From Octopus vulgaris (lineage: Eukaryota), in contig OX597820.1 of assembly GCA_951406725.2 (NCBI GenBank), positions 38,502,001-38,566,000 on the forward strand: 64,000 nt of DNA. Direction: 5' to 3'. Below are positions 2,846 to 60,742 of this stretch, in pieces. The notes under the pieces were generated by a model. The model made no database searches, was not told where the DNA came from, and saw only the letters and a program-made list of their open reading frames with translations. Within the stretch, counting starts at the first letter, position 1. Each line of letters starts with the position of its first letter. A program made the position numbers and the translations under genes.

Positions 2846-3662
2846 ATGTCATATTTCGATAGAAATTACACACAAGCTTCTGTTAATGTATTGCCTAGTC
2901 ACCCGTGGACTGGAGACACCGTAATTTAGTTGGCACAACTGGAGGCAAGCTTTAAAGCTAACAAATTTACAAGTGAAGAACAGAAATACAATATAATGCT
3001 CAGCAATTTACCTCCACCTCTAAGTAATGAAATTAGAGATTTGCTACTAAACCCTATAAAACCAGTTTCTTATTGTTCCATTAAAGAAGAAATATTGAAA
3101 CGAGCATCAAATTCGAAACAAAAAGAATTTGCGAAGTTATTCAACAATGAAGAGTTGGGTAATAAAAAAACCCACACAACTTCTGCGAAGGATGAATGAA
3201 CTTCTGAGAAATCAGCAGATAGAATAATCTTATCTCAAAGAAGTGTTTTTCAGTAAATTGCCATATAAAACTCAAACTTTGCTTTCGGCCGTTAAAAGCC
3301 AAAACTCCATTCAACAGTTGGCAGATTTAGCAGACGGTATTCTGGAATTATCGTCCAAAGAAACTGTAAGTGCAATTCCATCTATTTCGAATGAAATACA
3401 GGAATTAAAAAATTGTTATGAAAAACAATTTGAATTATTAACAAAAAAAATAGAGAGTTTGCAACACGAAAGAAATAGTCGCTCAGCTCAATGAAAGAAT
3501 ACAAGATGGCGCAGGAGATTAAGGAGCCCTAGTTTAAAAAGAAACGCCATATGTTGGTACCATACAAAATTTGGAAACAAATCATTCAAATGTATTAAAC
3601 CTTGTGCATTTGATTTCCTAAACAAAAAAAAAGGAAAATTCGGGAAACTTCTGAACCACAGA
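2846..3662 (+). pseudogene. gag: Gypsy gag, disrupted
   Basis: ATG at 2846 is in frame with ORF 2930-3199 across a TAG at 2927. Frameshift near 3170 into the 3243 frame. [18 protein letters not shown] (CHCC) knuckle at about 3551-3606. Confidence 0.85.
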
Positions 3663-6600
3663 TTGGATGCGACGAAATCTGTGGATAACATCATAAAAAG
3701 TCGCGTATTTTTCGTCTATGACTTAAACTCAAAAGAAAGGTTTTTAGTTGATACAGGAGCAGCTTGTTCAATTTGGCCTGTAAAGCTTTTAAAACAAAAA
3801 ACCAAACCTGTATATTTGACTCTTCAAGCAGTTAATCAATCTGAAATCCAAACATTTGAAGAGATTGGCTTAACTCTAGATATAAATTTAAGAAGAGAAT
3901 ATAAATGGATCTTCATAGTAGCAGATTTACCATATCCAATATTAGGAGGGGATTGTTTGGCACACTACCATTTAATGGTAGATGTTAAAAAACAAAAATT
4001 GATAGACACAGAAACTTCATTAAAAATTCAAGGAATGAGATGCAGAAAAAGCACAGTTAGTCCATTGTATTTCATAGCGTCCTCGGAAAATAGATATCAC
4101 AGGATTTTGAAGAATTATCCGAATATCACGAAACAATTAGCTCTAAATACCAAGTGTGTGCATTCGGTAGAACATCACATCGTCACACAAGGACCACCAA
4201 GTTTTTCTAAGCCGAGAAGATTATCTCCTGAAAACTTGAAGGCAGAATTTCGGCATATGATGGATCTAGGTATAATCCGTCCTTCCAGTAGTAGCTGGTC
4301 AACACCATTAGTTATGGTAAAGAAAAATCTTATAGACTGGCGACCTTGTGGAGACTTCAGGCAACTTAATGCAAAAACAAAAGCAGACAAATATCCGATA
4401 CCCCACATTATGGACTTTGCAACTTCTTTGAGTGGTTGTACTATTTTTTCAAAAATTGATTTAGTCAGAGCATACAATCAAATTCCTGTTGCAGAAAATG
4501 ATATACCGACGACAACGATTACCACTCCATTTGGTTTATTTGAATTTCTTCGCATGCCTTTCGGATTGAGGAACGCAGCAAACACTTTCCAAAGATTTAT
4601 GGACGAAGTAACAAGAAATTTACCTTACGTATTTGCTTATATAGATGATATTCTCATTGCTAGTCCAGCAGAAGAAGCACATGAAGAACATTTAAAGAAA
4701 TTTTCGAAAGATTGACGAATTTTGGCATTGTGATAAATCCATCAAAGTGTGTTTTTGGTGAACCCACTATATCTTTTCTGGATCATCTTATAGATAAAGA
4801 TGAAATTCGACCATTACCAGAAAAAATTGAAGCAATAAAAAACTTTCCTGTACCGAAGACTTTAAAGAAACTCAGAGAATTTTTAGGGATAGTTAATTTT
4901 TACAGAAAGTTTATTCCTAAAGTCACTGAAACCCTATATCCCTTAACTGGGCTATTAAAAAATAGAAAGAAAAAAAATGAAGCCATAACTTTAAAAGAAA
5001 CAGAATTACAAGCTTTTAGAAAAATTAAAGAGAAACTGTGTAAACCAACACTTTTAAACCATCAGGTTCCTGAAGCAAAATTATCATTGATAGTTGATGT
5101 TTCAGATGTTTGAATCGGTGGCGTTCTACAGCAATTTCATTGTAATTCCTGGCAACCATTAGCATTTTTTTCAAAAAAATTCAAAGCACCAGAAACTAAA
5201 TACAGTGTGTACGGCAGAGAATTGTTGGCAGCTTATTTGTCAATTAAACACTTCAGACATCTTCTTGAAGGTAGGTCATTTACTTTATTCACTGACCATA
5301 AACCATTAACATATGCGTTAAAAAGTTCTTCGGAGAAGTATTCTCCTAGAGAAATTAGACACCTTGATTTTATTTCACAATTTACTGCGGATATACGTTA
5401 TATCAAGGGTGTTGAAAATTCAGCAGCAGATGCACTTTCTAGAATGAATGTAGATGCATTAAACTCATTAAACACTATAAATTTGGAACAAATGTCTAAG
5501 GATCAAATTGCAGATAAAGAACTTTCTTTATATAAAAATTCCAATTCAACTTCTTTAAAATTTAAAATGTTGCTGATCCATTCGTGTAATTCACATATTT
5601 GGTGTGATATTTCTACAGTTTTTTCGAGACCATTTGAGCCAGAAAAGCATAGAAAAAAAGTTTTTTCTAGCTTACATAATTTATCTCATCCAGGTATAAA
5701 AGCTTCATTGAAGTTGATATCAAGTCGTTTTGTTTGGCTTGGTATGAATAAAGATATTCGTTCTTGGGTAACGTCATGTATGAAATGTCAAAAATCAAAA
5801 GTACAGCGTCATATCAAAGCACCATTAGGCACATTTGCAAATCCAGATGCGAGATTCCAACATATCCACATCGATATAGTTGGACCATTAACTCCATGTG
5901 AGGATAATATCTATTTGTTGACGTGTATCGATCGCTTTTCGAGATGGCCGGAGGCTTATCCGATAAAAGACGTATCTGCAGTAACTATAGCCAAAACCTT
6001 ATTTACCAATTGGATGTCTAGATTTGGCATAGCAAACACAGTGACAACAGATCGTGATAGACAATTTGAGTCTAGCCTGTTCGCAGAATTCAATAAATTG
6101 TTGGGGATTAATAGAATTCGTACAACTTCATACAACCCACAATCTAACGGAATGATAGAAAGGTTCCATAGGCAGTTGAAATCTTCATTAAGAACTTATG
6201 ATACTAACAGTTGGTTAGAAGCCTTACCAGTCGTATTATTAGGAATTAGAACTGCTGTTAAAGAAAATATACAATATTCTACTGCTGAACTTTTGTACGG
6301 AACAACATTAACTCTACCTGGTCAAATATTCGAAGAAACCAATTCTTTTAATGGAGATGTTAATGATTATGTAACTCGTCTTAAGAGATTTCTTACTGAT
6401 ATTCCTTCTTTTACAAGAAAATTGCAAAATGTTAAAAGCTTTGTTCCTTCTGATATAAATTCTTGGACACATGTATTTGTACGTAACGATGCTGCTCATA
6501 ATTCACTGAAATATAAATACACCGGACCTTTTAAAGTCTTGTCAGTTAGAGACAAAACTATGACTTTGGAGATAAATGGCAAAAAAGAAATTGTCAGTGT

Positions 6601-6819
6601 CGACAGAGTAAAAAAAGCTTATTTCGACCACCATTCATGTCATGAAAAAGAAGATATGAGCAATACATATCAACATAACTTGAAACAAAATGATATTCAA
6701 AGAAACAAATCCAATGTTAATGGAAAAAAAAGTCAATTTTGAAATTACCTACATATGTGAAAAAGACTAGAAGTGGCAGAATGGTACATTTTCCAAAAAA
6801 ACTTTCTCAGTTTGTTTGA
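3663..6819 (+). pseudogene. pol: Gypsy pol (protease, RT, RNase H, integrase), disrupted
   Basis: [10 protein letters not shown] protease; [14 protein letters not shown] and YIDD RT; TDHKPL and ADALSR RNase H; HNLSHPG..CMKC, HIDIVGP, IERFHRQLK and YTGPF integrase; terminal TRSGRMVHFP. Frameshift ~4712, stop 5111, frameshift ~6730. Confidence 0.95.
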
Positions 6820-17019: not shown

Positions 17020-18310
17020 CGAGGGGCGTTCAATAAGTAATGCCCCTGATCCACTTTCCATAGCAGTAGAGCAACGAAACTTGGAACAGTTATTAGTCTT
17101 TTTCTACATAGGAACCACCCAGAGTTACGCATTTCTCCCATCGTTTGATGCAGCTCTGAAGACCGTTTTTGTAGAAGACCCCAGCTTGGTCCTCCAACCA
17201 CGACGTGACTTCAGAAATCAAGGCTGCATCATCTGGGAAACGCTTTCCTTTCAAAAACAACTTCATGGCTGGGAAGAGGTGAAAATCAGAGGGTGCAAGG
17301 TCAGGAGAGTAGGGGGGATGGGGGATGAGTTCATAGCCACACGCCTGTGCTTCTGATCTGGCGACACGCGAGTTGTGGATCGGAGCGTTGTCCTGCAGGA
17401 GGAGGATGCCTTTGCTGATCTTGCCCCGCCTCTTGATTTTGATAGCTTCTCTTAATTTCCTCAAAAGTGAAGCATAATAGGCTCCTGTAATTGTGGCACC
17501 ATTTGCCAGGAAATCTGTCTTCATTACTCCGTCCTGGTCCCAGAAGACTGTAAGCATGACCTTGCCAGCGGAGGGCTGCACCCTTGCCTTCTTTGGAGGA
17601 GGTGAGTCACGGTGCTTCCACTGCATTGACTGGGCTTTGGTCTCTGGATCATAGTGATGGACCCAGGTTTTATCCTATGCAATCAGTCTTTTGAAAAATT
17701 TTGACTCATCTTCTTGGCACATCTCCAAATACATCCTCGAGCAATCGACGCGTTCTTGCTCCTGGAAAGGTGTAAGCAACCTGGGAATACATCTGGCAGA
17801 CACCTTTTGCATATGCAAATGGTCATGAATGATAGTTTCCACAGACCCGGTACTAATCTTGACCTCATGGGCTATTTGGCAAATAGTTATGCGTCGATCT
17901 TCCAAAATGGCAGCCTCAACTTGACAGACAGATGCCTTATCAATGGCAGAAGGGGGCGACCAGATCTGGGAGCTGTTTCCACAGAGTTCCGACCATGCTT
18001 GAATTCACGATGCCAGCGTTTTACAAGGTCATATGATGGGCATCATCACCATAAGTTACTTTCATTTCATCAAAAGTCTCCCGTGGTGTGCGTCCTTTCA
18101 AATACAAAAACCGGATCACCGCTCGACACTCAGCATGCTCCATTTCACACTTGACTCAGTTCAAACACCTGTAAATCAAAAACCACAATTAGTTCAGAGC
18201 TGTAATTTGCCACTTAATCTATAGAGATATGAATAATTGCACATGCAAAATTGCAGCTAGATCAAACAACTGCAAGTGGGTCAGAGGCATTACTTATTGA
18301 ACGCCCCTCG
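17020..18310 (-). mobile_element. Complete mariner (DD34D) DNA transposon, 1291 bp
   Basis: TIRs CGAGGGGCGTTCAATAAGTAATGCC / GGCATTACTTATTGAACGCCCCTCG, with TA duplications at 17018-19 and 18311-12. Confidence 0.95.
17093..18143 (-). pseudogene. Mariner transposase, disrupted
   Basis: MEHAECRAVIRFL start; DKTWVHHYDPE, LLQDNAP and HPPYSPDLAPSDFHLF motifs. Stop at 17675 and a frameshift near 18040. Confidence 0.92.
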
Positions 18311-19458
18311 TATGCATAAACTGCTCTAAATTAGCGGAGTTGGCGTAGGTTACCTCGACGGTGTCTCGATTGAAAATAGCATGATACCGATTAGATTTAG
18401 GAAAACACTTGTTCAAAACAGCAAAAACATTTCTAGCTATCCTGGTTGAAACATGCAAACAGAAAATTGGGTTCAATCAGATGACATCCTGATTCCTATA
18501 TCTGTTGTTAGGTTTATTTTTATCGAGTGCGTTGTACAGGATTAGAACAAGGAGTTGAATTATTATGTCGCATGTGTTCTATCAGTTTTCTTTGGTAGTT
18601 CATTGACATGACCAGTTTTTTCTGGCATGTATTCTTTATCCGACTGATTTCTCAAAAGGTAACGTTGTGGTGGTATATGATGTGCATCGCAGTTGTAGGA
18701 ATTACCAGTGTTGCTTATGTCTGCTTCTTGTATATATTGAATTTCCTCACCGTGCCGAGCCCTAGCTAGAGCATCATTATAATAAGATGCATGAGATTCG
18801 AAACATTTATTGTTAGAAGATAATGTAGAGATTATAGTAGAAATATTCTTAACTAGTCCCCGTATAATCAAGGGTGGATGGTTGGATGCTACGTTAAAGT
18901 ACTTAATATGATCATTCGGTTTATAAGATGGTTCAAATAATGCAGCATCAAGACAGAAGTTTGCATCAAGAAAATTCACTCTATGATAATCTTTACCTAT
19001 AGTAATGTTTAGTCCTAAATTTGTGAAAGAAAGTCTAAATAAAGTTTTCCTATGCCTTTCTAACTGTGGTTTACTACATCTGACTAGAAAAAATAAGGCG
19101 TCTTCCCTTATACAGACTCCCTGTTACTTCCGGAAATGAAGACTGGATTAATGAAAGGATATATATTCCGACTAGGTTACTAGCCTGAGCAGAACCATGT
19201 GAGACCATTGCTATTTCAAAAGCATTTTCCCTATCTAATCTACTACATTTTGTACCATCAAAATCTACTAGAGTGGCTTGCGTAGCAAGTATAATATCTA
19301 TTTTGCGTCAGGACAAATCGGATTTTTTCATGCTAAAATTCAGGGCTTGATTAAGAACGATCGGGTTGATAGTGGCATACTAGCTCCCGATATCAAGTTG
19401 CAAGAATTTACTAGTTTTGTTAATAATTTCTCGTATATTCCGTCTTCTGTCTTTCATC

Positions 19459-26310: not shown

Positions 26311-27060
26311 TAAGTAAAAAAACAGAGTTGAACGCAGATGTTATTCAAATTCTTTTACTTTCGACATATGTTTCCAAGACTACATTGGTTTTATTCCAAA
26401 GGAATAAACGGTGTAAAATAACACACTTATAGAGTGATCTTACAAATGTAAGCACTGGCAGAAACACACCTTTAGCTCATGCAAGTGATTTATACCAGCC
26501 TGTATAGTTTGAACATTTAATTCACCTGGAACTTTACTTCAATAGAGAAATCTACCTCCAAGCCTTTAAACAGTTTTTCAACCAACATATCCCTCTATAT
26601 TTCTCCTTTATTTGTTCTCTACTTATTATTCCTTTACTCCTTCTCTTTCTATGGTCTACCTTGGACGTCAGATCTACTAACGGCTACTTTTTAAAAAAAC
26701 TTAATAGCGTTCTGTTTATCAAATATGCAGTCATCAAAATTGTTATAATGTCTTGTTGAGATGGGTTCTCTTTCTTTTCTGATGAGTAGATTACATTATT
26801 TTACACAGTTTATTCCTTTGGAATAAAATCAGTGCTGTCTTCGAAACATATGTCGAAAGTAAAAGAATTTGACGAACATCTACGTTCAACTCCATTTATT
26901 TACTTATACTAAACAAATTACTGGACATTAACCCGGAGTTTCTACCTTTGAATAGGTCGCTACATCCTTGTTCCTTGCGTGAATTTTGCTACCCTGGTAA
27001 CCGTTTATTGAATTTTCCGTGTTAATTATAAATAAAGTATAATTCATTCATCCATTTATA
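26311..27060 (+). mobile_element. Severely 5'-truncated PLE: inverted pLTR piece + last codons of the ORF + pLTR
   Basis: 26311-26421 is the reverse complement of 26796-26906. YKCKHWQKHTFSSCK* at ~26441-26488 parallels the RCPHWRRYTYLAFK* end of the 27942 ORF. 26930-27025 matches 54120-54220 in reverse. Confidence 0.8.
26772..26861 (+). ncRNA. Type I hammerhead ribozyme motif
   Basis: CTTTT CTGATGA GTAGAT...GTCTTC GAAAC ATAT GTC GAAAG: canonical core, palindromic stem III loop, stem I pairs. Confidence 0.8.
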
Positions 27061-27142
27061 TATATAATAATAATATTAGGGCGTATATTCAAAATTACCG
27101 GGAAAAATTAGATTTAAGATTAAATCAAATTTCACAGTATAA

Positions 27143-27871
27143 ATATAAATTAAATTAGAGATAAAACCACTATAAGCAAATCAAACAGTGAAAGACATAA
27201 ACCAAAACATGAAAATAAATATAATTAAGATAATATACAAAATAAATAAAATATAAAATTTAAAAATTTAAATTATTTAAATTTAAAACTTAAAATTTAT
27301 ATTAATAAATTTTTATATTTTTATATTTTTTAAATTTTAAATTGGTAAATTTTTAAACTTCTGATTTTTTAAATTTTTTAATTAATTTTTTTTATTCATA
27401 TATACTATCAAAACGTATTAAAAAGTTTAATATAATATAATAAGTAAAACCACTACGTAGTGGTTTACTTGTTATATTATATTAAACTTTTTAATACGGT
27501 TTGATAATATATCCTTAAAATCCTTTAAAATGTTTTAGCCCGAAGGCCGCGGCCATGCTGGGGCAAGTGGTTTTACTTATTATATTATATTAAACTTTTT
27601 AATACTTTTTGATAGTATATATAAAAAAAATAATAAAAAAATAAAAAAATAAAAAAATTAAATGTTGAAAATTTATAAAATTAAAATTTAAAAAATATAA
27701 AAATATAAAAATTTATAAATATAAATTTTAAATTTAAAATTTAAATAATTTAAATTTTAAATTGTATATTAAAATTTTAATTGTATATTATATTAATTTT
27801 ATTTATTTTTATGTTTTGGTTTATGTCTTTCACTGTTTGATTTGCCTAATAGTGGTTTTATCTCTAATTTA

Positions 27872-27879
<8 letters not shown>
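27143..27879. repeat. Nested AT-rich fold-back
   Basis: Left arm 27143-27454 pairs with 27566-27879 and, at its inner end, also with 27459-27512. GC-rich filler at 27531-27565. Confidence 0.85.
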
Positions 27880-27902
<23 letters not shown>

Positions 27903-27941
27903 ACATTATTGGTGAATTGAAGAAATGGAGCTGAACGCAGA

Positions 27942-30512
27942 TTGAACAGAAATCGTTTTATTTCATTCTACACGTGTTTCGAAAGGCACAAATTACCAAA
28001 ATCCGATGGAATAATGGGACCATATTGTGTCTTTCTCTTCAGGAAGAAAATAGGAAATCCGTTGGAAAAACAAAAACAGAACAGAGGCGGAGCAAAAACG
28101 AAGTCACCCAGGAGAAATGCCCACCTCAGATACCTAGATAAAATTACCAAGGACATTAATAGAACGGACGGAGTCCTGGTCCAGTCCGACAAGACCAGGA
28201 ACACATACAAGATGCCCATTAAGCAGTACCTAGATTTACTCGGTAAAGAGATCAAGAAAAATTATAGAAAAACCAATTGGAGTACCCTGAGGAAGGTAAA
28301 CTTGGAAATTAAGGAAATAATATTTAAACACCGAATTCAAATGAGAACTCAGCCGCTTAGCCCTAAGCAACCCAGATTTATAGTGAAGGACCATAAACCG
28401 AACTTCCACACCAACCCAGCGCTAAGACTCATATGCCCTGCTAGATCTGATATCGGGATAATCAGTAAGTACATTTTAGATAAATATATCCCTAGTTTAG
28501 TAAACAAGCTGAAGCTCAGCCTCTGGGCCAACTCCTCGCAGGTAGTGAAGTGGTTCTCTTCCATCCCCAATAAGAACCGTACTAGGTTCATTCAGTTTGA
28601 TATCGCCAGCTTCTACCCCTCGATTAACCCTAGTGTGCTAAATAAGGCCCTCTGGCATGCTCACAACAAGGCTGGCCTCACCAGAGAAGAGATAGATATC
28701 ATTTTAGTAGCCAGGAAATCGTTTATTAAGTTTGATAATAAGTTGTGGATCCGTAAAGATACTCCCAATGAATTTGATGTGCCTATGGGTAGTTCGGATA
28801 GTGCGCAGATAGCCGATTTGGTCGGAATATATATTCTCTACGAATTGTCCGACCAATTCCCGGAGATCGCGGGCGGCCTGTATCGTGACGATTGTCTGTT
28901 TTACCTGCAAAACACCACGAACAGAATAGTGCAGAAAACTAAGAGCAGGTTAGCTAGGTTTTTTAATAGAATGGGCATGAGTATAGTTTTTGATAATGAA
29001 CTCACCAAGGCCAATTTCCTAGACGTTACACTTAACCTTAATAGCGACTCATACTGCCCTTACCATAAGCCTTCCACTAATTTGAAGTATGTCAGTGTCT
29101 TCTCAAATCATGCCAAAACCGTAACAGACAATTTGGTTAAAAACATCTCTCTAAGATTGTCTGGCTTGTCCGCCAGTGCCGATATTTTTATGCAGAAAGC
29201 GGAATTTTATAACGCCGCACTATCCAAGGCCGGTTATAGGCAGAAGGTAATTTATATTGATCCGGCCCTTCCGATGCCATCATTCGGTCATCAGGATAGG
29301 GCCGTATATAATAACATTAACATTTTAAGTAAGGACGGGAGCGCGGTGGATGCCGGGGTAGTCGCTCCCGCATTTAATTTAGCGAACAAGGATAATTATC
29401 GGTCCGGGAAGTCTTACACTAACCCAAGACCCGTCATTCATCCGATAATCACCCACCCGAATGCGAGAGCTGGCGTCCCGATCCATCACACTGATAGGAA
29501 TAAGCATATATGGTTTGTAATCCCCTTTGGTAAGCAGATTAGAACTAACCTCCCCCTCATGTTTAGACAAGCCATCGCCAATAACTTCCCCAGAAATTCC
29601 AAATATTACTCCACGGTTAACTCGCATAAAGTTAGGATAGCTTTCTCCAACACTAAAAACCTCGCCCAGATAATCGCCTCCCATAATAATAGGCTACTTA
29701 CTAAGACCCTATCACCTTTTTCCGGAGGCACAGCCTCTTCCGCTCCCGGTTTAATGCTCAGTAGGAATAATTATAGTAGTAATAATGATATGAGAGCCAG
29801 TACAGTGACACATAATCTCAGCTCCAGCCAGGGAGTACCCACTAGGGGTATAGTTATAAATAGGGGTGTTGTGGTTGACGGTAACAATGGGAGTAGGGTA
29901 GAGAGCCCCAATAGCATCCCCAGCATCATTTCCCGCAATAGCAGCACCACGGGCAGTAGCAATGACAGCACTTTGATAGATAGTGGAGAATCAGGGGTTA
30001 TTCCTATAGTTAATAGTGACGTAGTGGAAAATAGAGTAGTAAGCGGCTGCAGGTCTCGGAACGAATATAGTGACAGGAACGCAGTTCTAATTTCAGAAAC
30101 TAATCCTAGCAGAATTAGATTCACGTCGGCGAACTCCAAGATCAAAAACGCCGTCTACCAATGCAAGGTTTACACGGACTCAGATGTCTTCACTTATGTA
30201 GGGGCCTCATCCTCAAGATTGTCTTTGCGTGTCTCCAACCATTACGCAACTTTTCGGGACATGAACAAGCGCCAGACCACGGGACTCAGTAAGCTAATAT
30301 GGCGACTGAAGGATACGAACTTAAGCTACAGGCTGGAATGGTCAATTTTGTCGGTGGCCCTCCCATTTGATAGGGGCAGAAGGCAGTGCAACCTTTGTGT
30401 CTCCGAACTCTTCCATATTTTGTTTGCCAGAGGCCGGATGGTAAACGGGCTTTTACAGTCGGCTTTTCGATGCCCCCATTGGCGGCGTTACACTTATCTG
30501 GCTTTTAAATAG
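27942..30512 (+). CDS. PLE reverse transcriptase - GIY-YIG endonuclease (first ~53 codons come from the antisense pLTR; true ORF is 5'-truncated at ~28100)
   Basis: SDKT, KDHKPNF...RLICP, QFDIASFYPSI, FDVPMGSSDSAQIADLVG, GLYRDD, NFLDVTLNL, YHKP..LKYV...SNH; AVYQCKV...YVGAS....RVSNH; C-terminal CNLC..E...CPH. No internal stops. Confidence 0.92.
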   Translation: MNRNRFISFYTCFERHKLPKSDGIMGPYCVFLFRKKIGNPLEKQKQNRGGAKTKSPRRNAHLRYLDKITKDINRTDGVLVQSDKTRNTYKMPIKQYLDLLGKEIKKNYRKTNWSTLRKVNLEIKEIIFKHRIQMRTQPLSPKQPRFIVKDHKPNFHTNPALRLICPARSDIGIISKYILDKYIPSLVNKLKLSLWANSSQVVKWFSSIPNKNRTRFIQFDIASFYPSINPSVLNKALWHAHNKAGLTREEIDIILVARKSFIKFDNKLWIRKDTPNEFDVPMGSSDSAQIADLVGIYILYELSDQFPEIAGGLYRDDCLFYLQNTTNRIVQKTKSRLARFFNRMGMSIVFDNELTKANFLDVTLNLNSDSYCPYHKPSTNLKYVSVFSNHAKTVTDNLVKNISLRLSGLSASADIFMQKAEFYNAALSKAGYRQKVIYIDPALPMPSFGHQDRAVYNNINILSKDGSAVDAGVVAPAFNLANKDNYRSGKSYTNPRPVIHPIITHPNARAGVPIHHTDRNKHIWFVIPFGKQIRTNLPLMFRQAIANNFPRNSKYYSTVNSHKVRIAFSNTKNLAQIIASHNNRLLTKTLSPFSGGTASSAPGLMLSRNNYSSNNDMRASTVTHNLSSSQGVPTRGIVINRGVVVDGNNGSRVESPNSIPSIISRNSSTTGSSNDSTLIDSGESGVIPIVNSDVVENRVVSGCRSRNEYSDRNAVLISETNPSRIRFTSANSKIKNAVYQCKVYTDSDVFTYVGASSSRLSLRVSNHYATFRDMNKRQTTGLSKLIWRLKDTNLSYRLEWSILSVALPFDRGRRQCNLCVSELFHILFARGRMVNGLLQSAFRCPHWRRYTYLAFK
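27961..28050 (-). ncRNA. Type I hammerhead motif (inverted pLTR copy)
   Basis: Reverse complement of 31101-31190. Confidence 0.78.
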
Positions 30513-31100
30513 CGTTTATAAATAATACCGGCACCCATAGCCCTTGGTAACAAATTCTGAAATAGCCTTTAAGATATCTACGATTAACCACTGCAAGGGG
30601 AATTACTCCTGTAAGATAAACGGGGCTTGGTTTTTTCACAGCGGGGGGTTCCCTTGACAAGGCAGGCTTAGATGAGAACACACACACACATAAAACATGA
30701 TATATATATTTTTTTCTGCCACCCAACGGTCATCACGGCAGTAGCCACTGACAGCCGAACGATCAAACGCACACACGTACACAAAAAATGTTTTCTACCC
30801 CTACGCCAACACACACGTATATAGAACAGTATACACACACACACGTCTCTAAGTAGATTTTTTCTCGCCCCTTATAAAACATCCAATATTCCTTAAATAG
30901 TTAGAACTTTATTCTCGGTCACAAAGAACATCTACGCCCCCTCACCCACATGATTGACCGATGCCTGACCCGTTGAATTCTTCAGCCACCGGTTCTCAAC
31001 ATACACTGATAAACAGTTTCGCCATGGGCTCTTAGGAGCATAGTTCGATTTGTTTTTGCTCCGCCTCTGTTCTGTTTTTGTTTTTCCAACGGATTTCCTA

Positions 31101-31190
31101 TTTTCTTCCTGAAGAGAAAGACACAATATGGTCCCATTATTCCATCGGATTTTGGTAATTTGTGCCTTTCGAAACACGTGTAGAATGAAA
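31101..31190 (+). ncRNA. Type I hammerhead ribozyme motif in the pLTR
   Basis: TTTCTTC CTGAAGA GAAAGACACAA...TTGTGCCTTTC GAAAC ACGT GTA GAATGAAA: canonical core, 10/11-bp helix II base, palindromic stem III loop. Confidence 0.82.
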
Positions 31191-31396
31191 TAAAACGATT
31201 TCTGTTCAATCTGCGTTCAGCTCCATTTCTTCAATTCACCAATAATGTTCTAATTTCAATTATCCGCACCAACGCACGGTTGCAACACCATATGGTTGTA
31301 CCTCCAACCGTGCTGTTTTACTGCTGTGATTTTTGCTACTAAGGTATCGGTTAAACTTTTGATTAATCTACTACAAGATTATTCATCTTTCTATTT

Positions 31397-31466
<70 letters not shown>

Positions 31467-31790: not shown

Positions 31791-32752
31791 ATATATTTAG
31801 TTACCTTTTAGTTATTTTGGTTACCGCTTTTGTTACCTCATAATTTGTCTTCAGCAAATTATGAGTGGTGATTCTTGCACATCCTAATGGATTCTGCGAT
31901 CGAATGCAAACCATGTGACAGTGAAGCGAAATTCCTAGTCAAACAGCTAGTATTGTACCCAACGATAAGCAGATAATGGTAAAATAAAGCATAAATGCAC
32001 TAATAAAGCACTGAAAAGCACGGTACAGCAATTTACACATTTTATGAAATAGTTTCCCTATAATCTATGGAAGACGCATTTATATCAGCAACATGGCTAA
32101 TGCAGTATTTATACTACACAATACACTCCTAATACTGTACAAACAATTTCACAAGTAATAATTCCATCAACAACAAGAAATAGCAAAACAAACCCTAATT
32201 TATGAAAAGCAGATCGTTGCGTCTCTGTGCTGGCTTTTAGTAACAATATGTAGCCTGTTAGAAATCAATAAAAATAATAGCAGTTGGACGGACAATCACA
32301 TCGCTTTCACTGTGTTGTCAAAGCATGTTGTATAATAACATGACCCTGATATTTTAAGACATCACATGTTCGATATTATTCTATCGCCAATTATTTGAAG
32401 CAACTCGTACTGAATGCAGGATATTCATTCCCTCTTGTTGTAAATGCTGTTTTGCCTGCCGCCATTGATGGAGTCCCTTTAGTTTAGATGGAACACTTTC
32501 AGATAATGCAGTTGATTTGTATTACATTGGCGGTATAAAAGTTACGTGCTTTAATCCTTCGTTTCATAATTAAGTGCTTCCATGATGAATTGCATGGTGC
32601 AATATTTTGGATTTCGGACAATTCTTTTCTATATCAACCTAAAGTTGAACAATATATTTTTAAGTAAAATTTGTTAGACAGAATCCAGTACATATACATA
32701 CATACATACATACATACATACATACATACATACATACATACATACAAATATA

Positions 32753-32793
<41 letters not shown>

Positions 32794-32919
32794 CTATGTA
32801 TATATATATATATATGTATATATATATAAATAAACATAGATATATACATATATATATATATACATATACATATATATATACATATATATATATATACATA
32901 TACATATATATACATATAC

Positions 32920-32952
<33 letters not shown>

Positions 32953-32982
32953 CACATATGTATATATATATATATTATATAT

Positions 32983-33679
32983 ATAATTAATTAATAAGGG
33001 TGAGAGAATTAGATACTAATTTAATAGTATATCTATTCTACACCAAGTGGCCTAGTGCTCCGAGAAACCTGGATTATTATAATATTTTATAATATATTAT
33101 AATATTTTTACAAAATAAATATAAGAGAGTGATCACTATATGGCTCACTCTAGCACCAGTTAATCCAAAAGGTTTCAACCACAAAAATACATGTTTCCCA
33201 TGAAAGTCAGTACGATTGTTAGCTCACACGGACAGGGCAAATAAAAAATAACAAAATACAGATTATTTTGGGACAATTGTTTCGCTATTAATGAATTAAA
33301 TGTAATTTTACTTACAATAAAATCCACTTGTAGCTCTTCAGCCAAAACTATCTGGATGAAATCCACTCAATCACACGCCAGATTTTACCATAACGATAAA
33401 TACGCGTGTGGTTCAATTGATTACATCCGACGTTATAATTCAAATGCCCCAACTAACAGCGCGCCAAATTTTCACGGAAAACAAATACAGCATTTAGAAA
33501 TAAATGCAGCATAATTATAATTAATTAATAAGGGTGAGAGAATTAGATACTAATTTAATAGTATATCTATTCTACACCAAGTGGCCTACATGGGAAACAT
33601 GTATTTTTGTGGTTGAAACCTTTTGGATTAACTGGTGCTAGAGTGAGCCATATAGTGATCACTCTCTTATATTTATTTT
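32983..33679 (-). mobile_element. ORF-less hammerhead-containing module (retrozyme-like / pLTR-only)
   Basis: 72-bp direct repeat 32983-33054 / 33517-33588 (period 534); 91-bp inverted repeat 33112-33202 / 33589-33679; internal hammerhead; (TA)n-type tracts on both sides. Confidence 0.8.
33266..33347 (-). ncRNA. Type I hammerhead ribozyme motif, canonical
   Basis: Minus strand: TTTTGG CTGAAGA GCTA-(43 nt)-TAGC GAAAC AATT GTC CCAAAA. All core bases are intact and stem I is 6 bp. Confidence 0.88.
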
Positions 33680-33706
33680 ATATTATATATATACATATAC
33701 ATATAC

Positions 33707-33781
<75 letters not shown>

Positions 33782-37714: not shown

Positions 37715-37986
37715 ATGTTACATTACTCGGTAGTCAAGATAAACCTCTGAGTTTCAGATGCCGAAGTGGAAATCCACAACACCATCTCTTCGGTTATCTG
37801 GCTATTTGAAAACGTTTTCAAATAGCCAGATAACCGAAGAGATGGTGTTGTGGATTTCCACTTCGGCATCTGAAACTCAGAGTTTTATCTTGACTACCGA
37901 GTAATGTAACATATTGTATAGATAAATTTCCTCTATTTACATAATATTGAGGTCTCTTTCTTTCTTTTGTTATCTTACCGTTTTAT

Positions 37987-54109: not shown

Positions 54110-55684
<1,575 letters not shown>

Positions 55685-56004: not shown

Positions 56005-58862
56005 CAGGGGTCTCCAAAGTTTTCCAGCGGAGGGCCACATTGCTGAATTTTTAAAGCTAAGGGGGCCAAGGTTCTAAATTATTTATTTTACCAAAATAAT
56101 ATAAATAAATAGTGAATTAATAATTAAAAAAGGTTATTTATTCAGTACATAATCACAATGTATATAATATCAGTAACAATTAACATGTTTTTTTTTAACT
56201 TTGATCAATAGGGGAAACATGAAATTGTTTCATTTCTGACAAAATTTTGTCCAACTGAGGTTCAAAATGAGTGGTTCCAATAACAAGCAATGCATTTAAA
56301 TGTTCATCAGACAATTGTGATCAGTAGCAGGATTTTGTGTATTTCATCTTTGAAAAAGTCTTCTCACACAAATATGTGGTGCCAAAAACTGAAATGAATT
56401 CACAGGCAAACCTCCTTAAATGAAGAAATTGGTCGGATGGAAGGCATTTGTAGAATTCAATCAAATTTCCCTCTTTATATTTGTCCTTCAGGATGTCATT
56501 GGATTGCAAATCAATAACTTCCATTTGTAACTCAGAAGGTAAGTCTCCAATAACAGAGTTAAATGGATTTTCAAAAATTCTTAGTTTTGAAGAACATGCA
56601 TCAAGATCAGAAAAACGTTCTTCAAACTGTTGTTTCAAAGCTAAAATGACATCTTGAGCAAACAAGTTTGGAAATGGAGTGGCAGCTTCCTGTCTATATT
56701 TGTCACATCGTGAAAAATGAGTAAAGCAGCTTCTTGTTAACTGACTTTCAAATAGTATTAATTTCTTACGAAAAGCTTTCACCTTTGAGTACAAATCACA
56801 GATGAGTGAAGTTTCACCTTGTATCCGTAGGTTGAAATCATTGAGATGCATAGTTAAATCGGCTGAAAATGCTAATTTCCAGAGCCATTCACTGTCTTTG
56901 AGCAACACCTGTGAATGGTTTTTCTCATTTAAAAATATTTCAATTTCAGTTCGAAGCTCAAAAAATCTAGCCAGAATTTTTCCATAGCTAAGCCATCTTA
57001 CTGAAGTATAGTAAGGTAGGTCCGGAAACTCAGCATTCATTTCCTCCAAGAAATCACGAAATTGGCGATGTTTGAGTCCATGAGATCTTATGTAGTTAAC
57101 AGTGGAAATCACAGGATCTAATACAGATGATAAATCAAGATGCTTTCCACACAGTGCTTGCTGATGAAGAATACAATGCAATACCAAAGGTTTCAATCCA
57201 CCGGAATTCTCAATTACTTTGTTAATTTGCCCAACTAAGCCCTTTTTGGTTCCACACATATTTCTGCCACCATCTGTTGTTATGCATTTTAGTTTTTTCC
57301 ATTCCAAATTATACTCAGCCACTGACTTTTCCACTTCTCTAAAAATATCTATGCCTGTTGTTGTTCCATGCATGCTGTGCACAGATACAAGTTCCTCAGT
57401 AATCTCAAAATTGGCATTTATTCCTCTGATGAACAATAACAATTGGGATGTGTCTGATACATCAATTGACTCATCAAGTGCAACAGAAAAGCATACAAAC
57501 TTGCTGGCTTTGTCTTTTAGCTGTGACTTAAAATTTATTTCAATATGTTCAACCCTACGAGCAACAGTGTTCGCAGAAAGACTAATTGCGGAAAATAAAT
57601 CTACGTTTTCTGGACACATTTCCTTAGCTACCTCATTCAAGCACTTTTTAATAAGTTCACCATCTGTAAATGGCTTACCTTTCTTCGCCAAAAGGTTAGC
57701 AACATGGAAGCTTGCTCTTGTTGCTCTCTCTTTTTCTACAGCCTTCTTCTTGAAAACAAACTGCATTGATGATAAATTCTTCTTTAATTTGTCAAATTTC
57801 TCTTTACGTAGCTGTCCAATGAATTGGTAGTACTGTGATGAATGCTTTTTTTCATAATGTCTCCGAATGTTGTACTCTTTAAGTACTGCAATTGTGTCGG
57901 TGCATATAACGCATAGTGCCTTGTTGTTTGACTCTATGACAAAATAGTCTATGTTCCATTGTTCCTTAAAAACTCTACACTCAGAGTCGATTTTTCGTTT
58001 TCTTCCTTGAGCTAACATTTTTACCATGGGTCGACAGATTTTGCTCGACGATATATGTAAAAGGACGAAACAAGTAAAAACAATATTCACAGGTCACTCG
58101 ATACGTGCATTCACTTCGGCAGCGACGACGACAAATGACTCACACTTGTGCACAACGAAAACGCCAAGTCTGTGCTGACTGACGGAATGCGCATCGAACT
58201 TTACTCCACGCTGATTGGCGACTGCACCAGGATTAGAAACCACCACACAACGTCAGGCTCAACCCTCTCTATTCATCGCTCGTGAGATGTAGGTAACATC
58301 GATAAATCGATATTTGTCTTCTTTTATTATACTAGGCACGGGACTTTTATTAACGTCATACTTGTCGTATCTGCTCTCTCGACAGTTGACGGAATAGGTT
58401 GACTTTTCTGCGACATCAATAAAGCTAGAAATTGAATCTCTGCTTCATTGTAAGCAGCACCATCCATCTCACTGACAATCGCCTATTATCTAAGATGAAT
58501 GATAGGTAGCTCCATAGCGAAGTTAATTCATTTTATGGTGGTTCTGATGGGTCAGTTAAAACGGGGGGAGTGGAAAAGAACCTATATTTACACTAAAGTT
58601 TAGTGTATAAATTTTTAATTCGCCGGCGCAATTTAAAGATATTAATTGATGGCAAATCAATTAGCGTCGTCTTGCGTCTATTTGCTGTACTATATTTGTC
58701 AAACGTATTAAAAGGGGTGTAAAGTATATTTGTTTTTGTATGATTTCGGCAAGGCTTGTTTTTCGACATTTGTTTTATAATTTTGGAGGACAGCTCGGCG
58801 GGCCGGATTAAAAACCTTGGCGGGCCGAATCCGGCCCGCGGGCCGTACTTTGGAGACCCCTG
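56005..58862 (-). mobile_element. Complete hAT (Charlie group; SPIN/OposCharlie1-like) DNA transposon, 2858 bp
   Basis: TIRs CAGGGGTCTCCAAAGT / ACTTTGGAGACCCCTG; 8-bp TSD TTCTAAAG / TTCTAAAC; GGCCCGCGGGCC subterminal motifs. Confidence 0.96.
56195..58027 (-). CDS. hAT transposase (GTF2IRD2/SPIN-like), ~610 codons, one premature TGA at 56321
   Basis: RKRKIDSECRVFKEQW, BED-like CVIC..RRHYEKKH, ALDESID, TTDGG, HCILHQ, VRWLS and FGTTYLCEKTFS motifs. The frame continues *SQLSDEHL...SPIDQS* to 56195, implying CGA>TGA in RSxL. Confidence 0.92.
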
Positions 58863-60188: not shown

Positions 60189-60692
60189 CATATATATATG
60201 CTAGACCACTGGTGTGAAGTCGATGTTAATTACATTAATATCTAATTTCTCACCATCATTTTAAATTTGAATTTAAATTAATACGTTCTCTAACCGGCAA
60301 AGGCCACTGCAGTAAAGTATTATCTGCAGCATCAGTTTTTCCGTTAATTTAGCGCCCCAGAACGAGGACATTTGAAATAGTAACCACGAGTGTAACGGGT
60401 AGAACTTTTTACAGGTCTGACTTTGTGCAGACGTCCTAGTATGCAGTCCTGCAAATTATATTCATCTGGACGCTCGCACCGATGATCTACGGAATTTACG
60501 TAATTAAAATTGTGTAATATGTTAATAGTGAAACATGTATGCGAATAATCCATATTTTTATTACTTTTTCTTTTGTCTTGCTCGAATACGTTTTTGTTGT
60601 TTTGCTAAACTTTTCTTGAGAACATTTCTTATTTGTAAGACCATAGCGGATCCATTTCTAGCATAAGGGTGTCCACACTGGTTTACCTCTAC

Positions 60693-60742
<50 letters not shown>

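What the first reader, a model, noticed from the sequence alone, without database searches (positions are those of the whole stretch)
32983..33679. Protein-free 534-nt unit with a perfect hammerhead, terminal direct repeats and a 5' inversion (retrozyme-like)
Seen: identical 72-bp direct repeats 534 bp apart, an exact 91-bp inversion, a canonical hammerhead (TTTTGG CTGAAGA GCTA..TAGC GAAAC AATT GTC CCAAAA) and no ORF remnant. The unit's end directly precedes its start. Inference: it was reverse-transcribed from a tandem or circular non-coding RNA by PLE machinery, as proposed for metazoan non-LTR retrozymes. Identical repeats imply a recent insertion.
Basis: partly seen in the sequence, partly recalled or inferred. 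Interest (0 to 1): 0.72.

Follow-up and report, generated by a model that had tools for sequence, protein, structure and literature searches.

The report
Hammerhead retrozyme with two-armed insertions
This is one of more than 800 young genomic insertions of a protein-free 534-base repeat that carries a conserved hammerhead-ribozyme fold and is likely pasted into TA microsatellites by borrowed Penelope-type retrotransposon enzymes; it is a new member of a known class, and its very regular two-armed insertions make the copying mechanism testable.

Summary
In detail: an exact 73-bp repeat at period 534, an exact 91-bp inversion, a type I hammerhead on the minus strand, no ORF. The unit is a young dispersed family (811 exact junctions of one end with (TA)n), often in head-to-tail arrays (longest arm 16 pieces); no sampled locus joins it to a coding sequence. 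The 'terminal repeat' is a truncated second unit, and the 'inversion' is a second arm. Arms end at two fixed sites 127 nt apart (A, B): of 98 two-armed loci 93 pair A+B, none A+A or B+B. Hydra-type Penelope-like elements here, one 1.6 kb away, show the same anatomy but share no sequence with the unit; one sister-family locus is a head-to-head Hydra/retrozyme chimera. Both arms usually carry one haplotype (47 of 53), and most private variants are fixed across arrays (17 of 25), which favours a unit-length, possibly circular template; 8 of 25 do not fit. Cleavage, expression, circularity and the exact helper are untested. Verdict: new member of the animal non-LTR retrozymes. This scan noted like families before, on other DNA of this and other genomes.

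The parts
32982..33515 (-). one full 534-nt non-coding unit (unit positions 1-534 on the hammerhead strand), 3' part of arm A
   Evidence: one letter from a natural majority-type unit
33516..33588 (-).
   Evidence: 424 exact B/(TA) junctions genome-wide, reversed control 0
33266..33347 (-). type I hammerhead motif: stem I, CUGAAGA core, stem II with a long structured loop, GAAA, 2-bp stem III with palindromic loop; predicted cut between 33272 and 33271
   Evidence: core canonical in 179 of 195 units
32985..33111 (-). 127-nt 'tail' between end B and end A, present at the outer end of arm A only
32982..32990 (-). fixed 3' end A, joined to (TA)n
   Evidence: 811 exact A/(TA) junctions genome-wide, reversed control 0
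32689..32981 (.). TA-rich microsatellite, left target flank
33680..33777 (.). TA-rich microsatellite, right target flank (no target duplication can be read in it)
27902..31400 (+). neighbouring, separate Hydra-type Penelope-like element (family 'H1'), candidate helper class: 5'-truncated RT + GIY-YIG frame to 30512, hammerhead motif 31109-31182, end A' at 31400, inverted arm about 27902-28100 ending at B'. No sequence shared with the unit
60201..60695 (+). older sister-family copy (about 540-nt period, about 60% like the unit) with its own hammerhead motif at 60479-60539

Best explanation
This is a young insertion of a protein-free, hammerhead-bearing 534-nt repeat family (an animal non-LTR retrozyme) that is likely copied from its RNA and inserted in trans by the RT-endonuclease of a Hydra-type Penelope-like element. 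Shown: the family, its arrays, the two fixed 3' ends, the A+B pairing, the (TA)n target, and the same anatomy in coding Hydra-type elements. Inferred: arrays are transcribed on the hammerhead strand; the helper nicks both strands of (TA)n; one strand primes at site A and the other at site B, as a rule on the same RNA or on RNAs of one source; both copies run 5'-ward over unit borders and past the ribozyme site, stop at scattered places and are joined head to head. Inferred with less support (about 55%): the hammerhead cuts multimers to unit length, these are closed to circles, and rolling copying of one circle makes the uniform arrays; otherwise the template is an uncut linear multimer.
For: 1305 candidates, arrays at period 533-535. 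170 distinct loci: 93 A+B, 0 A+A, 0 B+B, 5 two-armed with one odd end, 45 one-armed A, 23 one-armed B, 3 complex, 1 cut by the fetch. 811 and 424 exact end/(TA) junctions. H1 loci: 11 of 30 show A'+B' on opposite strands, none a like pair; tails 150 nt (H1), 155 (H2), 66 (H3) against 127. Purified Penelope-like protein cuts and extends both strands and starts at two internal sites that bound the tail (PMC11167929); Hydra elements carry hammerheads and target (TA)n (PMC8557442). L115: one arm is the 3' part of an H2-lineage Hydra element ending at its A end in (TA)n, the other a sister retrozyme ending at B, no TA between. Arms identical at diagnostic sites in 47 of 53 informative loci, permuted mean 10%, maximum 24.5% in 2000; the window's own letter at position 384 is in both of its arms and in none of 500 matches elsewhere. 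17 of 25 locus-private multi-unit variants are in every covering unit; L366 (18 pieces) and L375 (14 pieces) show no unit-level substitution. As a circle the unit folds at z -6.5 with hammerhead stems I and II formed (60 shuffles). Sister families of about 500 and 540 nt are also tandem and keep the hammerhead stems by compensatory change.
Against: No Hydra element with sequence like the unit was found, and no chimera of the 534 unit itself with coding sequence, so the helper family is not identified. The clean chimera is 1 of 30 sister loci and could be a deletion joining two neighbours; a second candidate (L112) has an old, interrupted PLE arm and is unreadable. 8 of 25 private variants sit in only some units, some in the same order in both arms (L047, L066), and L374 has nine unit-level differences: one monomer circle cannot give these. 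5' ends do not gather at the predicted cut (2 of 264 at 243-248, 3.0 expected). In vitro, ribozyme cutting was not needed for insertion, uncut RNA was the main template, and the two strands did not differ in start site (PMC11167929). Only 1 of 9 Xenopus retrozyme dimers cleaved in vitro (bioRxiv 10.64898/2026.07.22.740005). 14 of 195 units carry a U4C core change. Uniform arrays may partly reflect assembly polishing (not tested).
Confidence: 0.8

Rival explanations
1. Same helper and two-site priming, but the template is always an uncut linear multimer transcribed from an existing array; the hammerhead is a passenger or works at another step, and no circle is involved.
For: Variants in the second-last unit of both arms and not in the last (L047, L066); unit-level variants that recur within arrays (L044, L057, L063, L374); arm 5' ends lie within 50 nt of each other (modulo 534) in 32 of 93 loci, p 3e-4; uncut RNA is the main template in vitro (PMC11167929).
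Against: A new variant must pass from one unit to all units of arrays of up to 16; 17 of 25 private variants did, on both arms in several loci. Linear copying alone would only shorten arrays, so it needs added local homogenisation. Stems and core are kept over families 60-70% alike.
Confidence: 0.4
2. The second arm is not primed separately on RNA but made by fold-back: the first cDNA loops on itself and is copied back to site A or B, where the endonuclease resolves it.
For: 10 of 93 junctions are near-perfect palindromes (offset within 5 nt) and 40 of 93 show an overlap of 2 nt or more; shared haplotypes and mirrored variants follow at once; self-priming was proposed for Penelope palindromes (PMC3846280).
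Against: It gives no reason for strict A+B pairing; it cannot give arms of different haplotype (L241) or the Hydra/retrozyme chimera L115; both strands are extended on RNA in vitro (PMC11167929).
Confidence: 0.2
3. The unit is only the terminal repeat (pLTR) of an autonomous Penelope-like element not yet sampled, and these are its truncated copies.
For: Xenopus retrozymes match PLE pLTRs in 24 of 57 families (bioRxiv 10.64898/2026.07.22.740005); my probes covered six Hydra-type proteins only, and some 170 of more than 800 loci.
Against: Unit follows unit with no coding part in 98 of 167 loci; in H1, H2 and H3 end A runs on into the next coding unit, here into the next unit; two older sister families are also tandem and not joined to coding sequence in sense.
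Confidence: 0.07
4. A satellite spread by DNA-level processes (unequal exchange, extrachromosomal DNA circles) with no reverse transcription.
For: Tandem arrays; some unit-level patterns look like local duplication (L063, L044).
Against: Polarity (fixed 3' ends, scattered 5' ends on the ribozyme strand), dispersal over many contigs, (TA)n targeting and A+B arms shared with coding PLEs.
Confidence: 0.03

Closest known systems
Animal non-LTR retrozymes (Cervera and de la Pena 2020, PMC7229834: passages and parts 2-4 of 6 read; Li, Clavereau, Pollet, bioRxiv 10.64898/2026.07.22.740005: parts 1-3 of 5 read, supplements not seen)
   Same: Non-coding tandem units, one type I hammerhead each, low GC, no LTR features, strongly self-paired predicted circle that leaves the hammerhead free, co-occurrence with PLEs.
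   Different: 534 nt (170-400 nt in the 2020 paper, within 51-972 in the 2026 preprint); dispersed two-armed insertions with fixed A/B ends in (TA)n are not described in the parts read ('inverted' 0 occurrences in the 2020 main text); no parent pLTR found here; circles and cleavage were shown there, untested here.
Hydra clade of EN+ Penelope-like elements (Craig et al. 2021, PMC8557442: passages, section 11, two supplement rows read)
   Same: Hammerhead in the terminal region, (TA)n target, partial tandems, inverted 5'-truncated arm, tail on one end only. Hydra-1_Obim is listed with (TA)n preference.
   Different: The unit has no ORF; tail 127 nt against the 30-40 bp described; no sequence shared with the Hydra-type families sampled.
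Poseidon PLE of Anolis, in vitro mechanism (Frangieh et al. 2024, PMC11167929: parts 1-2 of 4 read)
   Same: Both strands of AT-rich DNA cut and extended; two internal start sites bounding the tail; no ends at the ribozyme cut.
   Different: There the two strands did not differ in start site; here genomic arms pair A with B in 93 of 93 standard cases.
Non-autonomous Chlamys PLEs such as MRC1 (PMC8557442, passage)
   Same: Non-coding, pLTR-forming, multicopy head-to-tail insertions.
   Different: They resemble their autonomous partners at the 3' end, and most Chlamys lack canonical hammerheads.

Membership tests
Animal non-LTR retrozyme | Tandem units with a type I hammerhead in each | tested here: met
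   core canonical in 179 of 195 units; covariation
Animal non-LTR retrozyme | [quoted passage not shown] 'active' criterion) | tested here: met
   met by the family (e.g. L044, L063, L366); the window copy has one complete hammerhead only
Animal non-LTR retrozyme | No protein coding | tested here: met
   (longest stop-free 89 codons); no Hydra coding junction
Animal non-LTR retrozyme | No LTR, PBS, PPT or 4-bp duplication as in plant LTR retrozymes | tested here: inconclusive
   the repeats are partial units, not LTRs; PBS/PPT not searched; a duplication cannot be read in (TA)n
Animal non-LTR retrozyme | Low GC, highly self-paired predicted circle | tested here: met
   169 G+C of 534 letters; circular fold -143.9 against -105.1 +/- 6.0, z -6.5
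Animal non-LTR retrozyme | Self-cleavage | not testable with these tools
   bench test needed
Animal non-LTR retrozyme | Expression as a circular monomer RNA | not testable with these tools
   only assembled contigs were available; genomic evidence is mixed
PLE-mobilised element | Fixed 3' ends, variable 5' truncation, partial tandems, inverted arm, tail on one end | tested here: met
PLE-mobilised element | 3' sequence shared with an autonomous partner | tested here: not met
   no significant match to H1 (best E 7.2) or to the 3' regions of the other sampled families beyond AT-rich noise; not all families were sampled
Autonomous PLE | RT + GIY-YIG ORF | tested here: not met
Hydra clade (neighbour H1 and relatives) | C-terminal endonuclease, DKT motif, CxxC and CxH at the end, hammerhead, (TA)n target | tested here: met
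   motif scan, frame, ends; motifs from PMC8557442 section 11. No Pfam or PDB match; no tree against reference sequences was built
Hydra clade (neighbour H1 and relatives) | RWK motif and CxCX5C linker | tested here: inconclusive
   H1 and H2 read RWL and lack the linker; H3, H4 and H5 have the linker

The most novel reading that the evidence does not exclude
A long-lived, parent-free lineage of ribozyme RNAs (successive families of about 500, 540 and 534 nt) rides Hydra proteins without sharing their sequence. The helper is an asymmetric two-site machine: one active site always starts at A, the other at B, normally on one circular RNA that both roll around, now and then on two different RNAs, which gives helper/retrozyme chimeras. 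That would be genomic proof of the circular intermediate and of how retrozymes board Penelope-like elements.
Probability: 0.3. Interest if true: 0.65.

Novelty: new member of a known kind. Interest (0 to 1): 0.42.

Why it matters
Retrozymes are known, and PLEs are their proposed helpers, but the support in the papers read is co-occurrence and terminal similarity. This family is young, abundant and sits beside young Hydra-type elements, so it gives defined reagents for three open questions: which enzyme mobilises retrozymes, whether the template is a circle or an uncut multimer, and how Penelope tails and inverted arms arise. The strict A+B pairing is a rule that an in vitro assay must reproduce and that the one published assay did not show. 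It is not a new kind of system.

Tried and rejected
Expression: no RNA holder listed (20 of 21 rows hold the stretch, none on record as RNA). Contigs of runs guessed to be RNA cover the unit and H1 and not the unique stretch 31911-32865, and one contig of 565 letters covers the unit once round; contigs cannot tell a circle from a tandem or RNA from DNA, so none of this is used as evidence. A-to-I editing signature: A>G over T>C was 16 to 3 in the first 40 loci (p 3e-4) but 8 to 6 among private multi-unit variants of 116 loci (p 0.3), with no clear neighbour preference: dropped. L195 first looked like the parent (97% unit copies near a Hydra ORF); the copies are a separate insertion beyond the element's 3' region and a TA-rich tract. 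L141 likewise. L065 abuts sequence like the H5 end but appears to lie inside that AT-rich element. L112 rejected as a clean chimera. Classical L1-type twin priming: it would put the 5' end of arm A at site B; the ends are scattered. Shared docking hairpins at A and B (lead from e1-8836906): hairpins precede unit A, unit B, H1 A and H2 A, but no common fold or sequence was evident in 8 ends. Pfam accession recalled for a PLE domain was not in the library. Rfam, Pfam and PDB gave nothing for the hammerhead or H1. Literature searches: retrozyme + hammerhead + Penelope-like (21 papers); octopus + Penelope + hammerhead (5, none on this); Penelope + pLTR + chimeric + inverted + template switching, 4 of 5 terms (10); retrozyme + twin priming (0). 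Subscription papers and the preprint's supplements were not seen and may hold like families. No earlier scan finding matched this sequence.

Full report
Observation. The window holds an exact 73-bp direct repeat at period 534 (32982-33054 = 33516-33588), an exact 91-bp inverted copy (33589-33679 of 33112-33202) and no coding frame of note, all between TA-rich microsatellites. The minus strand carries a type I hammerhead at 33347-33266 that folds better than 200 of 200 shuffles (z -3.7). Rfam does not report it. I number the unit 1-534 on the hammerhead strand; the predicted cut follows position 244.

Family. The own-genome search gave 1305 candidates; the 40 scored held 182 matches, many head to tail at period 533-535. 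Patterns spanning an end and the TA flank match 811 times (end A, about position 531-534) and 424 times (end B, about 404), reversed controls 0. The host is a 2.8-Gb genome; that it is an octopus is my inference from size and repeats, and earlier scan notes say the same. I fetched 175 loci (the window and 39 by similarity, 80 listed A ends plus 15 later stretches, 40 listed B ends), dropped 5 duplicates and tallied 170: 93 two-armed A+B, 0 A+A, 0 B+B, 5 two-armed with one odd end, 45 one-armed A, 23 one-armed B, 3 complex, 1 cut by the fetch. Arms under 24 nt count as absent; several one-armed loci show such stubs. An arm of two or more pieces stands in 98 of 167 loci, the longest with 16. The 5' ends are scattered: 2 of 264 at 243-248 (3.0 expected), both in L363, where one arm begins exactly at 245.

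Ribozyme. Of 195 full hammerhead regions, 179 keep the canonical core and vary only at the free position 7; 14 carry U4C and 2 a change in GAAAC. Two older sister families, about 70% and 60% alike, with periods near 500 and 540 nt, are also tandem. Over 7 sequences from these families 92% of cells pair and all 6 pairs of stem I change on both sides; slid controls fall to 24-49% (the structure was drawn from the unit, and 7 related rows are few). As a circle the unit folds at z -6.5 and leaves stems I and II formed. Cutting is not shown.

Helper. A Penelope-like element lies at 27902-31400: a 5'-truncated RT plus GIY-YIG frame, a hammerhead motif and an inverted arm. More than 100 of the 150 copies scored have an identical endonuclease domain, and many have an open 899-codon frame. 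It and five further families have the DKT, CxxC and CxH motifs in part or whole that PMC8557442 gives for Hydra (section 11), which targets (TA)n and is listed for Octopus. H1 also has two ends 150 nt apart, paired A'+B' in 11 of 30 loci and never alike; 15 showed one end and 4 none within the 3.3-kb loci. The unit shares no sequence with these families, and no unit locus is joined to Hydra coding sequence: 5 of 119 loci had any hit, the nearest 703 nt off, and none appeared at the 5' ends checked later. In the 540-nt sister family, 1 of 30 loci (L115) is a head-to-head chimera of an H2-lineage 3' part ending at its A end and a retrozyme arm ending at B, with no TA between. This is the most direct hint of trans-mobilisation, but it is a single case and concerns the sister family.

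Template. The two arms of a locus match at diagnostic sites in 47 of 53 informative loci (6 mismatches in 1442 comparisons; permuted mean 10%). Of 25 variants private to one locus and present in two or more units, 17 are in every covering unit and 8 in some. The long arrays L366 and L375 show no unit-level substitution, L374 shows nine. Fixed private variants need a step from one unit to many, which rolling copying of a circle gives most simply, as proposed in PMC7229834. Partial variants, two of them in the same order in both arms, need a multi-unit template, several templates or later exchange. PMC11167929 found uncut RNA to be the main template and two internal start sites bounding the tail. 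I put the circle at about 55%.

Comparison and verdict. It works like a Penelope-mobilised element and meets every sequence-level feature of animal non-LTR retrozymes that I could test; cleavage and circular RNA need the bench. It differs from the parts of the papers I read in its 127-nt tail, its strict A+B pairing and the lack of a parent terminal repeat, against the pLTR origin argued in bioRxiv 10.64898/2026.07.22.740005. Searches for the two-armed pattern in retrozymes found nothing, within the limits of the library. The scan noted like families before; those notes are not independent support. New member of a known kind; interest 0.42.

Noticed in passing
window 37778-37849: The Rfam mir-9 match (both strands, just above the cut-off) is a perfect palindrome at the head-to-head junction of two arms of the H3 Penelope-like 3' region: very likely a false microRNA.
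   Followed up: partly
window 27902-31400: Young Hydra-type element H1: 899-codon frame in full copies, tandem period about 3624, 150-nt tail, no CxCX5C linker, no Pfam or PDB match.
   Followed up: yes
L115:716-1985 (G000:C8): Head-to-head chimera of an H2-lineage Hydra 3' part (end A) and a 540-nt sister retrozyme (end B).
   Followed up: yes
L363:4848-5430 (G000:C2): Both arms stop at the predicted ribozyme cut (positions 245 and 248); the only such case among 264 ends, not above chance.
   Followed up: partly
window 26779-26854, 55438-55514, 60479-60539: Further hammerhead motifs of older PLE or retrozyme families; several families here read CCGA in place of CUGA in the core (H2, H3, the 540-nt family, 14 of 195 units).
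   Followed up: partly
L192, L195 (family H4): Young GC-richer Hydra-type family whose 3' region holds long microsatellites and in which my pattern found no canonical hammerhead.
   Followed up: no
window 27100-27880: AT-rich fold-back element whose ends resemble the 3' end of Hydra-type family H5 (L190); possibly another non-autonomous passenger.
   Followed up: no
window 18563-19123 and 54784-55449 (minus): Decayed Hydra-type RT and endonuclease remnants, used as probes.
   Followed up: partly
window 3495-6742, 17093-18004, 56321-58093: Frames that read like a gypsy-type pol, a mariner transposase and a hAT-type transposase; labels from recall, no search run.
   Followed up: no
L214, L267, L269 (G000:C1): One insertion with the same flank at three places: carried along by segmental duplication; one of the three has a unit fewer.
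   Followed up: no
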